63,637 nt of DNA, taken from positions 1 through 63,637 of the forward strand of contig NW_026935304.1 of assembly GCF_032062105.1 (NCBI RefSeq), in the 5' to 3' direction. Numbering within the stretch: the first letter of the stretch is position 1; each line of letters starts with the position of its first letter. A program made the position numbers. Positions 24,001 through 27,000 of this stretch are shown here, in pieces. Source of the stretch: Saccostrea cucullata (Eukaryota).

Positions 24001-27000
24001 CCAGAAGATTCCAAAGAGAAAAGCGCAGCCACCACATGCATATTAGCCATTTCCCCTGCAGGGATCCTCGGTGCTCACCATTATTACCTCAATAGAATTT
24101 GTTTTGGAATCGCCTACACGCTTACTTTCGGACTTCTCGGTGTTGGATACATCGTCGATTGGTGCCGTTTCCCAGTATTAGTTCAAAGATACAACAAGAG
24201 TAAAAGAAAGCGTTTTATTTCCCACAAACATTTAGACGACGCTTATCTTCTATGGTTTCCTCTCGGATTTCTCGGACTTCATCATTTTTATCTGAACAGA
24301 CCGGGCTGGGGTTGTCTGTATTTCTTTACTTTCGGTTTGTTTGGGCTTGGTTGGATTATCGACGGATGTCGACTCTGCTCCCTGGTTACGGAATGTAACA
24401 AACAGATAGACGAACAGGTGCTCCTCCACAGCAACAATCAGGGAATTTCTAATCCGAACTTTGTAACCGGAAGTGTTGGATCGCAACAATGGCCGCCAGC
24501 AGGTGTGATATACATAATATTGAAATTAAATTTCTTCGACTTTGACATCTTTTTAAAAACGAATTATTCGATGATTGGCACTGTTTTTTTTTTAATTTTG
24601 TAGCTGGAGGTCACATGGTCTCTAATTATACACATACGTCAATACCGTATCCACCTGGATATACCGTCAGTTATCCCGCCCAACCAGGGCTTTATCCAAC
24701 AGGACCAATACAGCACAACGATAAGTTAAGTCATAAGCATTTTATCCAACACAGCACAACAGTAAGTTAAGTCATCGATCAGCATTTTATTCATTACAGC
24801 ACAAAGGGAAGTTAAATCATCAGCATTTTATCCAACACACCACAACGATAAGTTTAATCATCAAGAATTTATGCAGCACATTACAACGGTGAGTGTAGGC
24901 ACCAGGACTTTATGAAACACAACAAAACGGTGTTTTTAAGCATCAGGATTTTATCCAACAGAACACAGAAGTATAATACCAGTAATTAAAAGGTCATTGA
25001 CATGCAATACATTAATTTCACTCTGAGGTCTTTTTCGATGATTCTTTATCTAAAAAAAGCCCCAGCTGTTACAAAAATAGCTTTAAGTTCAATGTGCAGA
25101 TATTGTATTTTGCCATTCATCACCTGGACTTTGAACTCTATAGTTTCTCATATTTACAGGATATGGATCCACTTCCGGTGTCGACGATCAACCGCCTCCA
25201 TATGAAGCTGGACCGCTGCCAACCAAGGACAGATAACTCTCTCAAATCCAGTGTGTGTTACTTTAATTTACATGTGGATGAAGATACGTCTTCATTTCAC
25301 AAGGACCTGTAACAATAACTGTTTACCTGTCCAACAGGACTGGCTGAATGTGTGTATAGTTTTGACCGAAGATGACGACTTCGCCTTAATGCATATTCTA
25401 GCAGTGATTTGATAAATTATTTGGTGTAGGAAAGGCAGTCAAGAATAAAAATGTATAGAAATATTTCATTGATTAGAATTTCAAATGAAATGATCTTAAA
25501 CACATATCACCCTGTACTGCTGTACGTTATAGTGATTTATATTTTGTATGGAATAAAAGCAAGAAAAAAGTAACTGATTATTCATCATAATTCATAATTA
25601 TTTAGTACTGTAGATCACTTAAATTTCGCTACACCTTATTTTTGCGAGATGGTCATTGACTCTTTATTAGCGATACAAAATTTTTACGAATTGTGGTCAT
25701 TACTCCATATAATATTATGGAATTCTATTATAAGCGAGAATGAAATTTTCGTGAGCAAACCATCTCGCGTAACTACGCAAAAATAAAGTTCTCGCGAATA
25801 AAAAGTGATTTACTGTAGTATACAGAATCTATCATGAACATCAAGTCTATAATCTAGTGAGTCACGATGTCTGTTAAATGCTTTTCCGAGCCCTGAGGCA
25901 CCTGATCCTTATATATAAGCAGAGGAGAGTAATGGAAAGGGGATAAAAACTAAGACGAGTTCACTTTTGATCTTAGTCTCACTTTTTCCCATTGAATTAA
26001 TAGTTGAAAAGGGAGAATGGGATCAAAATACGCTCGTCTTAGTTTTATGGCTCCCATGCCTAAAATCCCCTGGATTGGATATCAGTACGTAAACCCCCAA
26101 ATAAGCCGGTTTCATTTAGTGTTCTGGTATGCAATGTAGACTGAATGACTAGAGTAAATACATAATTATGCTAAATACAACACTAAGTGCCCACAACAGG
26201 GTTTTTCAAGAAAACAACGATCTTTCGGCTACTGAACAAACATCACTGATCATGCCTTATGATTCACTCATTTGTCATTTTCTGTACGTGTTTATAGCAC
26301 ATTTAACACAGAGAGACGCTGTTATCTGGCATACGAGGGTTGTTTGTAAAATTTTCAGACCATATAAATTTTCGTCATATTACTTTACAAAAAAATTAAA
26401 ATGAGCACAGTAATTATATATTAAAATATTTATTTTGTTGATGTGTAGAATTTCAATTCAATTGGGTGACCGAACTCCATCGAACAGAAGATATAAAACC
26501 AAATTCACAATACGTGAAAAATACGAATTGAAATTACTTAGTCCGGTAAACTTTTTTGGGACTGAGGACGTAATTTGAAAGGATAAGAGAGATGTTAAAT
26601 ATTTTTTTCAAATTAGAATTCATTTTTGTTTAATTTCAGCCCCATACATGATGTACATTTGTCAGATGAAGCAATGCAATCCCTCTTCTTACCTTTCTTT
26701 TGTTTAAGTTTTTTGTTTCAGAAGAAAAATCATATATTTATATGAATTTTCAAATAAATGAATAATTTATTGCTATTGTGAGATTTGTAACCTATAAATA
26801 TCCTCTGTATCAACCGTGGAAGTATATGTCAGTCTGTTTATTAAGTTTTCTAGATGGCTAGCAAATTTTCGTTGTAAACATATATGTCTTTTATTTCTGT
26901 TTAAAAAAATAGACAAGGGTAGCTTTTTCCACATGATTTATTTCAATGATTTCATTTATACAAGGAAACATAATTGTGTTTAGATTTTCCATCCAGAAAA

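What the first reader, a model, noticed from the sequence alone, without database searches (positions are those of the whole stretch)
24690..25312. Tandem array of splice donors may swap the TM2 protein's PPPY tail
Seen: the exon-3/intron-3 junction is duplicated as a ~41-bp repeat. The ancestral phase-1 donor (G|GTAAGT in the pseudogene at 14182) is G|ATAAGT at 24721 in the intact gene. The next repeat offers a perfect A|GTAAGT at 24762, reached without a stop but in phase 0. Joining it to the acceptor at 25160 enters the alternative open frame (DMDPLPVST...FHKDL*, to 25312) and loses PPPY. Differences between paralogues at cct/cca and tac/tat are synonymous in the PPPY frame, marking that frame as ancestral. 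Inference: the repeat acts as a reservoir of donors, so a SNP or repeat-number change can re-code the C-terminus and remove a ubiquitin-ligase docking site.
Basis: partly seen in the sequence, partly recalled or inferred. Interest (0 to 1): 0.7.

Follow-up and report, generated by a model that had tools for sequence, protein, structure and literature searches.

The report
Dead splice donor in oyster TM2 gene
One copy of an oyster membrane-protein gene has lost the splice signal before its last exon, inside a short tandem repeat holding spare copies of that signal, so its conserved PPPY tail is probably no longer made; this looks like ordinary decay of a spare gene copy.

Summary
The window is a 63,637-bp Saccostrea cucullata contig. 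It carries RefSeq gene LOC134242465, which encodes a protein with four TM2 domains.

- **The repeat:** a 41-bp tandem array (24705-24965) straddles the last exon-intron junction.
- **The donors:** the conserved phase-1 donor reads G|ATAAGT at 24721, against G|GTAAGT in the neighbouring pseudogene. The next unit offers A|GTAAGT at 24762, in phase 0.
- **The consequence:** joining 24762 to the acceptor at 25160 opens a 50-residue frame that lacks PPPY.

- RefSeq's own model (P0095) uses the 24762 donor. It then ends after two more codons, across a 45-nt "intron" equal to exactly one repeat unit. It has neither tail.
- The alternative tail has no relative in the searches made, is cut short in both other copies, and is not longer than chance allows.
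- Two sister loci and the S. echinata orthologue keep the canonical PPPY tail.
- The neighbouring copy is a transposon-hit pseudogene.
- PPGY, LPGY and LPTY motifs remain in the protein.

My best reading is a recent tail-losing lesion in a redundant paralogue.

The main rival is a compensated shift. Copy A has an AG at 25142-25143 that the other two copies lack. With the 24762 donor it adds 57 nt in frame and keeps PPPY.

Only RNA and raw reads can decide.

The parts
22934..23465 (+). Copy A (LOC134242465), first coding exon: N-terminal Q/P-rich region with LPGY and LPTY, and the first TM2 domain
   Evidence: P0095 residues 1-178 match the window exactly; similarity to the TM2 units of exon 2
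23867..24502 (+). Copy A, second coding exon: three TM2 domains; phase-1 donor CAG|GTGTGA at 24503
   Evidence: Pfam TM2 PF05154, E 2.3e-33, 3 stretches; P0095 residues 178-389
24604..24720 (+). Copy A, third coding exon in its ancestral extent (ends ...QHN plus one base, phase 1); contains the PPGY motif
   Evidence: the junction position is conserved in P0001, P0094, P0093, P0002 and P0004
24721..24726 (+). Disabled ancestral donor: ATAAGT where copy B has GTAAGT
   Evidence: pairing with the U1 5' end -2.6 against -9.3 kcal/mol
24705..24965 (+). 41-bp minisatellite straddling the exon-intron junction; six units with donor-equivalent sites at 24721, 24762, 24807, 24848, 24889 and 24930
   Evidence: Tandem Repeats Finder; alignment to the copy B array
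24762..24767 (+). Donor of unit 2, ACA|GTAAGT, phase 0; used by the RefSeq model
   Evidence: P0095 maps through 24761; U1 pairing -5.6 kcal/mol
24762..24806 (+). 45-nt 'intron' implied by the RefSeq model; equals exactly one repeat unit
   Evidence: P0095 ends TT+GS; the only AG|GGNAGY-stop site downstream of 24700 is at 24805; unit spacing 45 nt
24807..24815 (+). Terminal coding piece of the RefSeq model (GGA AGT TAA)
24889..24894 (+). Donor of unit 5, ACG|GTGAGT. It pairs best with U1 in the array and is in phase 1 like the ancestral donor, but it lies behind the stop at 24768
   Evidence: -11.3 kcal/mol
25142..25143 (+). AG found only in copy A, 16 nt upstream of the normal acceptor (copy B and the relic have AA). 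It gives a phase-0 acceptor with the exon starting at 25144
   Evidence: alignment A2
25160..25236 (+). Last coding exon in the ancestral frame (phase-1 entry): tail with QPPPYEAGPLPTKDR and stop TAA
   Evidence: one residue different from the P0094 tail
25160..25312 (+).
   Evidence: no relative found
11699..16405 (+). Copy B, unprocessed pseudogene of the same gene. It keeps the ancestral donor G|GTAAGT at 14182 and the PPPY exon at 16098-16174
   Evidence: self-BLAST 76-89% identity; two premature stops and codons with gaps in exon 2; 3-bp deletion at the exon-2 donor; transposon in exon 1
5967..6179 (+). Relic third copy of the last exon and its flanks, with SSLY in place of PPPY

Best explanation
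The window is an oyster (Saccostrea cucullata) contig with a small, partly decaying cluster of one gene. The gene encodes a protein with four TM2 domains whose short C-terminal tail carries a conserved PPPY motif.

An old 41-bp minisatellite arose by tandem duplication of about 22 nt of exon end plus about 19 nt of intron start. It straddles the last exon-intron junction, so the intron begins with a row of decaying copies of the donor.

In copy A, the only copy here with open exons, the first and ancestral donor has G>A at +1 and should be dead (inferred from the general rule for +1 G>A). Splicing must then fall to a downstream unit. The candidates are 24762 (phase 0), as in the RefSeq model, or 24889, which lies behind a stop.

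With the normal acceptor at 25160 the PPPY exon is then out of frame. The protein ends in 16 residues (RefSeq model), 16 residues (read-through) or 14 + 50 unrelated residues.

I read this as a recent, degenerative loss of the tail in a redundant paralogue: a young null or hypomorphic allele, or the first step to a pseudogene. I do not read it as a device for swapping tails.

Shown: the sequence features, the RefSeq model, the redundancy, and the past constraint on the PPPY frame. Inferred: that the A is real, which sites the spliceosome uses, and that losing the tail harms function.
For: 1. Identity. P0095 (XP_062580537.1, LOC134242465) sits on a contig of 63,637 bp, the window's length. It matches the window's exons letter for letter.

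2. The lesion. The donor lesion and the array are as described. P0095 runs through 24761 and lacks the PPPY tail.

3. Conservation of the tail. PPxY lies in the last 40 residues of 58 of the 84 homologues P0001-P0084. None of the 8 weaker hits, P0085-P0092, has it. The junction N|GYG... is shared by oyster relatives.

4. Redundancy. The same species has P0001 and P0094 with the canonical tail, on other contigs.

5. Decay in the same cluster. Copy B has stops, gaps, a broken exon-2 donor and a Tc1/mariner-type insertion (HTH_SB and DDE_3 domains) in exon 1. A third relic has lost PPPY.

6. The lesion is young.
- dN/dS between A and B is 0.289 overall and 0.148 in exon 4, with dS 0.30.
- Since the duplication, copy A has 10 derived amino-acid changes against 33 in B, with 15 ambiguous. 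Ten of B's 33, at residues 40-51, lie in a doubtfully aligned stretch.
- Copy A's tail differs from that of P0094 at 1 of 24 residues.

7. No sign of function in the alternative tail.
Against: - Copy A's coding sequence shows no other defect. It has evolved under constraint: about 10 derived changes over roughly 800 non-synonymous sites, which I estimate as omega near 0.08 if dS is split evenly. That would also fit a gene that still works.
- An AG found only in copy A at 25142-25143 would restore the frame together with donor 24762.
- A single base in a tandem repeat may be a consensus or polishing error. Unit 4 carries the same CACAACGATAAGT.
- The count of lineage-specific changes gives no clear evidence that copy A evolves faster than its sister loci. 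It has 14 outside the tail, against 7 and 8, but P0001 and P0094 are sisters, so A's branch is simply longer.
- No transcript data were available.
- The tail of the RefSeq model may be an ab initio guess.
Confidence: 0.5

Rival explanations
1. Compensated shift of both intron boundaries. Copy A splices from the phase-0 donor at 24762 to the new phase-0 acceptor at 25144. This adds 41 + 16 = 57 nt (19 codons) to a linker of variable length and keeps the whole PPPY tail. On this reading the gene is fully functional.
For: - The combination is open and keeps PPPY.
- The G at 25143 is unique to copy A; copy B and the relic have A.
- Reading, no other AG lies between 25099 and 25142. With a branch point upstream of about 25130 it would therefore be the first AG met.
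- Each change alone breaks the frame; together they preserve it.
- By my own estimate, about a 5% chance accounts for that one substitution.
- Copy A's exons, exon 4 included, look constrained.
- The linker varies in length among relatives.
Against: - The RefSeq model does not use this acceptor.
- The 90% cluster around P0001 holds 4 proteins, and none has such an insertion.
- The search with exon 3 plus its read-through found only P0001.
- Acceptor 25144 has the weaker context: 12 of 20 pyrimidines against 14 of 20. It lies inside the pyrimidine tract of the strong acceptor at 25160.
- The relic is aligned through a run of A, so calling the G derived is weak.
- The constraint seen may simply predate a very recent lesion.
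Confidence: 0.2
2. Artefact. The true base at 24721 is G (an assembly or polishing error inside the repeat). The gene is spliced canonically from 24720 to 25160 like its relatives.
For: - Everything else in copy A is intact and constrained.
- The site lies in a tandem array in which unit 4 has the same 13-mer with A, so mis-placed reads could in principle have altered the consensus.
- The contig is a short piece of 63.6 kb.
Against: - The units are only 73-77% alike, so reads spanning more than one unit should place uniquely.
- Substitution errors are the rarer kind of assembly error (general knowledge).
- Natural polymorphism is a likelier source of a single-base difference.
- Nothing in the window points to low quality; it has no N.
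- I could not inspect any reads.
Confidence: 0.12
3. The donor array is a working reservoir. Copy A now makes a protein with the DMDPL...FHKDL tail (24761 joined to 25160). This is a functional re-coding that frees the protein from ubiquitin-ligase control.
For: - The donor at 24762 has the full intron consensus and lies 41 nt from the dead donor. Passages read in PMC8964760 name strength and proximity as the main determinants of cryptic-donor use in human genes.
- 25160 is the strongest acceptor.
- The stop at 25310-25312 would lie in the last exon.
- The mRNA itself may well exist as a by-product under the best explanation.
Against: - The tail found no relative.
- It is cut to 36 and 26 codons in the other two copies.
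- Its openness is within chance (0.22 for the UTR part; 0.05 for any 50 codons).
- The differences between copies are non-synonymous in that frame (read from the two translations) and mostly synonymous in the PPPY frame.
- The RefSeq model does not use it.
- Other [LP]PxY motifs stay in the protein.
- Three of the six donor-equivalent sites are already dead.
Confidence: 0.08

Closest known systems
Cryptic 5' splice-site activation after a +1 G>A donor mutation (classical in human disease genes; surveyed in PMC8964760, of which I read the abstract and passages)
   Same: The canonical GT is lost. A nearby GT of good strength, 41 nt into the intron, is the expected substitute. The usual result is a frame shift and a changed C-terminus.
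   Different: - The substitute donor is not a chance decoy. It is a paralogous copy of the donor itself, supplied by a minisatellite.
- The cited survey states that decoys as strong as the annotated donor are rare within 150 nt in human genes. Here the repeat puts two within 170 nt.
- Use in transcripts is not shown.
Tandem duplication of a splice junction as a source of new splice sites or introns (the Rogers model of intron gain by duplication of an AGGT-containing segment; recalled, no paper read here)
   Same: A segment spanning an exon-intron boundary is tandemly duplicated. This gives several equivalent donors in a row.
   Different: - This is an array of six decayed units, older than the gene duplication (dS about 0.3).
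- The period of 41 nt is not a multiple of three, so successive donors fall in different phases.
- No new intron is shown.
Unprocessed pseudogenes in tandem gene clusters
   Same: Copy B, 10 kb upstream, is a clear case: stops, indels and a transposon. Copy A may be taking the first step in the same direction.
   Different: Copy A has a single lesion and intact, constrained exons, so it does not yet qualify as a pseudogene.
Membrane proteins with PY motifs that recruit NEDD4-family ubiquitin ligases through WW domains (for example the NDFIP adaptors; recalled)
   Same: A multi-pass membrane protein with PPxY/LPxY motifs in its N- and C-terminal tails. The terminal PPPY is conserved across molluscs.
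   Different: - The fold family is different (TM2, PF05154).
- No binding to any WW domain has been tested for this family. A search for 'TM2 domain' plus 'PPxY' returned 2 papers, both on the ENaC channel and unrelated.
TM2D1/2/3 (almondex-type) proteins of animals (recalled)
   Same: They share the TM2 domain.
   Different: As I recall, those proteins have one TM2 domain. This one has four in tandem plus PY tails. Its relatives are annotated only as 'uncharacterized' or 'TM2 domain-containing'.

Membership tests
TM2 domain proteins (Pfam PF05154) | Match to the TM2 profile above the gathering score | tested here: met
   Exon 2 translation scores 114.6 bits against a cut-off of 27.9, E 2.3e-33, in 3 stretches. 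A fourth unit in exon 1 shows 44-45% identity to exon-2 units.
PY-motif ligands of WW-domain (NEDD4-type) ligases | PPxY motif in a terminal, non-membrane segment, conserved among relatives | tested here: met
   In the ancestral frame, exon 4 encodes QPPPYEA. PPxY lies in the last 40 residues of 58 of 84 homologues. In the RefSeq model P0095 this motif is absent, while PPGY, LPGY and LPTY remain.
PY-motif ligands of WW-domain (NEDD4-type) ligases | Physical binding to a WW domain, and cytosolic orientation of the tail | not tested
   No partner was chosen and no complex prediction was run. Topology was not predicted.
Cryptic-donor activation after loss of the canonical donor | The canonical GT is destroyed at a junction shown to be ancestral | tested here: met
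   G|ATAAGT at 24721 against G|GTAAGT at 14182. The junction is shared by P0001, P0094, P0093, P0002 and P0004.
Cryptic-donor activation after loss of the canonical donor | Transcripts use the substitute donor | not testable with these tools
   The only indirect evidence is that the RefSeq model ends exon 3 at 24761. I could not see what evidence lies behind that model.
Regulated alternative 5' splice sites (tandem donors giving two functional isoforms) | Both products are conserved or constrained | tested here: not met
   The alternative tail found no relative, is truncated in copies B and the relic, and is within chance length. Differences between the copies fit the PPPY frame only.
Pseudogene (copy A) | Disabling lesions together with relaxed constraint | tested here: inconclusive
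   There is one lesion, the donor. The exons are open. A has 10 derived changes against 33 in copy B. The comparison cannot resolve constraint after the lesion arose.
Minisatellite | Head-to-tail array of a 10-100-bp unit | tested here: met
   Period 41, 4.4 and 3.4 copies, scores 194 and 103. The homologous array in copy B has a different number of units.

The most novel reading that the evidence does not exclude
Copy A is not broken. It has been caught in the act of 'intron sliding'. The minisatellite supplied a new donor 41 nt downstream. A point change created a new AG 16 nt upstream of the old acceptor. Each change breaks the frame alone, but together they add 19 codons and keep the conserved PPPY tail. 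Junction-straddling minisatellites would then be a concrete route by which intron boundaries move without loss of function.
Probability: 0.18. Interest if true: 0.6.

Novelty: new member of a known kind. Interest (0 to 1): 0.3.

Why it matters
- **As it stands:** this is a case note on how a minisatellite lying across a splice junction makes the C-terminus of a conserved membrane protein fragile. One base change moves splicing to a repeat copy in another phase, and the conserved PPPY tail drops out.
- **For annotation:** the RefSeq model ends in a 45-nt "intron" that equals exactly one repeat unit. That is a likely artefact class in repeat-rich invertebrate genomes.
- **If the compensated route is real:** it would be a rare documented intermediate of intron-boundary movement.
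- **For biology:** the family itself (four TM2 domains with PY tails, widespread in molluscs and other marine invertebrates) is uncharacterised. A natural tail-less copy beside intact copies could help test what the PPPY tail does.

Tried and rejected
- **Search for any protein carrying exon 3 plus its read-through.** It found only P0001 (1 hit from 2 candidates), so there is no transcript-derived support for any isoform.
- **Search with the alternative tail, longer proteins only.** Nothing was found among 2 candidates.
- **Exhaustive representative search with exon 2.** It gave 2,787 hits at E <= 0.001. Only their tails were considered, and the result was not used further.
- **Relative-rate idea.** I asked whether copy A evolves faster than its sister loci. 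I rejected this as evidence, because P0001 and P0094 are each other's closest relatives and A's branch is therefore longer anyway.
- **A donor at 24889 rescuing the frame.** It is in phase 1 like the ancestral donor, but it lies behind the stop at 24768.
- **Two-step routes through the array.** 24762 to 24800, then 24889 to 25160, ends in the third frame, not the PPPY frame (read).
- **Origin of the A at 24721 by conversion from unit 4.** I considered it because unit 4 has the same 13-mer. It is not favoured, because the rest of unit 1 resembles unit 1 of copy B rather than unit 4.
- **Literature.**
  - No genome paper for the species turned up among the 8 of 9 papers listed.
  - Nothing was found on TM2 plus PPxY.
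  - Nothing useful was found on minimum intron length in oysters, so the plausibility of a 45-nt intron stays open.
  - One search failed on a term that was too long and was not repeated.
- **Collections.** None of the DNA collections on hand holds eukaryotic genomes or reads. The orthologous arrays in the other S. cucullata loci and in S. echinata could therefore not be examined.
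Full report
**What the window is.** The window is AT-rich, with about 0.27-0.41 GC in 2-kb steps, and holds no N. The gene under the finding encodes a protein with TM2 domains: Pfam PF05154 matches the second coding exon at E 2.3e-33 in three stretches, and a fourth unit lies in the first exon. A search with that exon found 92 longer proteins. 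The best was a Saccostrea cucullata protein at 93% identity, followed by other oysters, bivalves, gastropods, brachiopods and echinoderms. The 90% cluster of that best hit has four members. One of them, P0095 (XP_062580537.1, LOC134242465, S. cucullata, 444 aa), lies on a contig of exactly 63,637 bp, the length of the window. P0095 matches the window letter for letter at 22934-23465, 23867-24502 and 24604-24761. So the window is that oyster contig and P0095 is its public gene model. I do not take the contig for human. Spliced models were studied exon by exon. The joined step, meaning a search or fold of a joined full-length model, was left out.

**Checking the observation.**
- Tandem Repeats Finder gives a 41-bp period at 24705-24888 (4.4 copies, 77% matches, score 194) and at 24827-24965 (3.4 copies).
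- The unit repeats the end of the exon and the start of the intron.
- The six donor-equivalent sites are 24721 ATAAGT, 24762 GTAAGT, 24807 GGAAGT, 24848 ATAAGT, 24889 GTGAGT and 24930 GTGTTT, spaced 41, 45, 41, 41 and 41 nt.
- The paralogue has CACAACG|GTAAGT at 14182 where the intact copy has CACAACG|ATAAGT.
- The read-through from exon 3 stays open until TAA at 24768, so the donor at 24762 is reachable. It is in phase 0.
- From the acceptor at 25160 the phase-0 frame runs 50 residues, to a stop ending at 25312. The phase-1 frame gives the 24-residue tail with QPPPYEA.
- In exon 4 the two paralogues differ by 6.0 synonymous and 3.0 non-synonymous changes in the PPPY frame, dN/dS 0.148.

**The ancestral state.** P0001 and P0094 (two further S. 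cucullata loci on other contigs), P0093 (S. echinata), P0002 (Ostrea edulis) and the transcript-derived oyster protein P0004 join ...N to GYG(S/A)..., followed by (Q/E)PPPY(E/D)A. P0003 does the same with one extra A before that G. PPxY lies within the last 40 residues of 58 of the 84 homologues P0001-P0084. None of the 8 weaker hits, P0085-P0092, has it. The phase-1 donor and the PPPY tail are therefore ancestral and conserved.

**What the public model does.** P0095 ends ...IQHN DKLSHKHFIQHSTT GS. Downstream of 24700 the only place where an AG is followed by GGN AGY and a stop is at 24805. The model therefore removes 24762-24806. That is 45 nt, exactly one repeat unit, running from the donor-equivalent site of unit 2 to that of unit 3. 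I could not see the evidence behind it. An intron of one repeat period could be an ab initio choice, or reads from an allele with one unit fewer. Both are inferences.

**The neighbourhood.** Copy B (about 11699-16405) is 76-89% identical to copy A over exons, introns and 3' flank. It is a pseudogene.
- It has two premature stops and gapped codons in exon 2.
- A 3-bp deletion removes or shifts the exon-2 donor.
- A 1.2-kb insertion in exon 1 carries ORFs matching the Sleeping Beauty HTH and DDE_3 transposase domains.

A third relic of the last exon at 5967-6179 reads SSLY instead of PPPY. The 41-bp array is present in copy B with a different number of units. It is therefore older than the duplication, whose dS is 0.30. 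Intron and UTR distances are 0.22-0.26.

**How constrained is copy A?**
- dN/dS between A and B is 0.289 overall. That is below the 0.5 expected if one copy had been neutral since the duplication, so both were constrained for a good part of that time (inference).
- I polarised the differences with P0001, P0094 and P0093. Copy A has 10 derived amino-acid changes, copy B has 33 and 15 are ambiguous. Ten of B's 33, at residues 40-51, lie in a doubtfully aligned stretch.
- Copy A's exon-4 tail differs from that of P0094 at one of 24 residues. With about 50 non-synonymous sites and a per-lineage dS near 0.15, neutrality would predict about 7 changes (my arithmetic).
- The PPPY frame of copy A was therefore under selection until recently. 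The donor change is young, or not real, or compensated.

**What splicing could do.**
- Computed pairing with the U1 5' end is -9.3 kcal/mol for the ancestral site (copy B), -2.6 for 24721, -5.6 for 24762 and -11.3 for 24889 (the U1 motif is recalled).
- Passages read in PMC8964760 name strength and proximity as the main, though not sufficient, determinants of which cryptic donor is used in human genes. By that guide, 24762 and 24889 are the candidates.
- 24889 lies behind the stop at 24768.

I enumerated all single-intron joins that keep PPPY.
- With acceptor 25160: donors 24610, 24670, 24730, 24754 (GC) and 24766. All match at most 5 of 9 consensus positions.
- With an upstream acceptor at 25144: donors 24618, 24666, 24678 (GC) and 24762.

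The last of these is notable. The AG at 25142-25143 is unique to copy A; copy B and the relic have AA. The 41 nt added at the donor and the 16 nt added at the acceptor sum to 57 nt, or 19 codons. The piece after the old donor encodes DKLSHKHFIQHSTT. The piece before the old acceptor encodes FLIFT. The normal tail follows unchanged.

**The alternative tail.** It found no relative among longer proteins. The frame stops after 36 codons in copy B and after 26 in the relic. In this window, 0.22 of random positions stay open for the 24 codons that lie beyond the normal stop, and 0.05 stay open for 50 codons. Nothing marks the tail as more than an accidental frame.

**PY motifs that remain.** P0095 still has LPGY (residue 28), LPTY (50) and PPGY (406). 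P0001 has these three plus PPPY. Losing the tail removes the best-conserved motif, not every one. That PPxY motifs bind the WW domains of NEDD4-type ligases is established general knowledge. It has not been tested for this family, and I found nothing in print (2 papers, both unrelated).

**Verdict.**
- The minisatellite does place spare donors behind the real one.
- A single base change has, on the face of the assembly, moved the end of exon 3 and unhooked the PPPY tail.
- Seen against intact sister loci, a dead neighbour and a decayed relic, the most likely meaning is a young degenerative lesion in a redundant copy (0.5).
- The rivals are a compensated double shift that keeps PPPY (0.2), a base error (0.12) and a functional tail swap (0.08).
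- The remainder is left open.

**Limits.** No RNA data, raw reads or eukaryotic genome collections were on hand. Supplementary files of papers were not needed.

Noticed in passing
window 5967-6179: A third, isolated copy of the last exon with its acceptor and 3' flank (73% and 93% identical pieces). It reads SSLY instead of PPPY, runs on to a later stop, and is followed by AAAG|GTAAGA at about 6189. No TM2 exon lies upstream of it.
   Followed up: partly
window 11856-13020: A Tc1/mariner-type transposon fragment inserted in the first coding exon of pseudogene copy B. Its ORFs match the Sleeping Beauty HTH domain (E 2e-6) and DDE_3 (E 1.3e-11). GC rises to 0.41 here.
   Followed up: partly
window 14420-15900: The last intron of copy B is about 1.5 kb longer than that of copy A. 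The insertion contains a 195-bp unit repeated twice at 98% identity (15345-15735).
   Followed up: no
window 13950-13965 against 24495-24510: Copy B lacks 3 bp (GGT/GTG) at the exon-2 donor, so its GT is lost or shifted to another phase. This is a second splice lesion in the same cluster.
   Followed up: partly
window 24690-24720: The exon part of repeat unit 1 carries 9 extra bases (GP+I/T/A in the S. cucullata proteins) that the later units lack. The S. echinata protein P0093 also lacks these three residues. The exon end itself therefore has an indel at the edge of the repeat.
   Followed up: partly
window 26980-27450 (-) and 47489-47932 (-): Two ORFs with C1q domains (E 4e-11 and 6e-14), a family known to be expanded in bivalves.
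   Followed up: no
window 49676-50621, 52188-52339, 62410-62667: A 32-bp satellite of 29.6 copies, with shorter arrays of its reverse complement further on. GC skew reaches 0.32 at 50001-52000.
   Followed up: no
window 22118-22806: This stretch matches its own reverse complement over about 690 bp at 66% identity, just upstream of copy A's first coding exon.
   Followed up: no
P0094 (another S. cucullata locus, not in the window): Its N-terminal Q/P-rich region carries extra tandem copies of a segment of about 21 residues (NPAGPGTNQQGTQPLPGYQQPH...). Repeat-number change therefore also reshapes the other end of this protein family.
   Followed up: no
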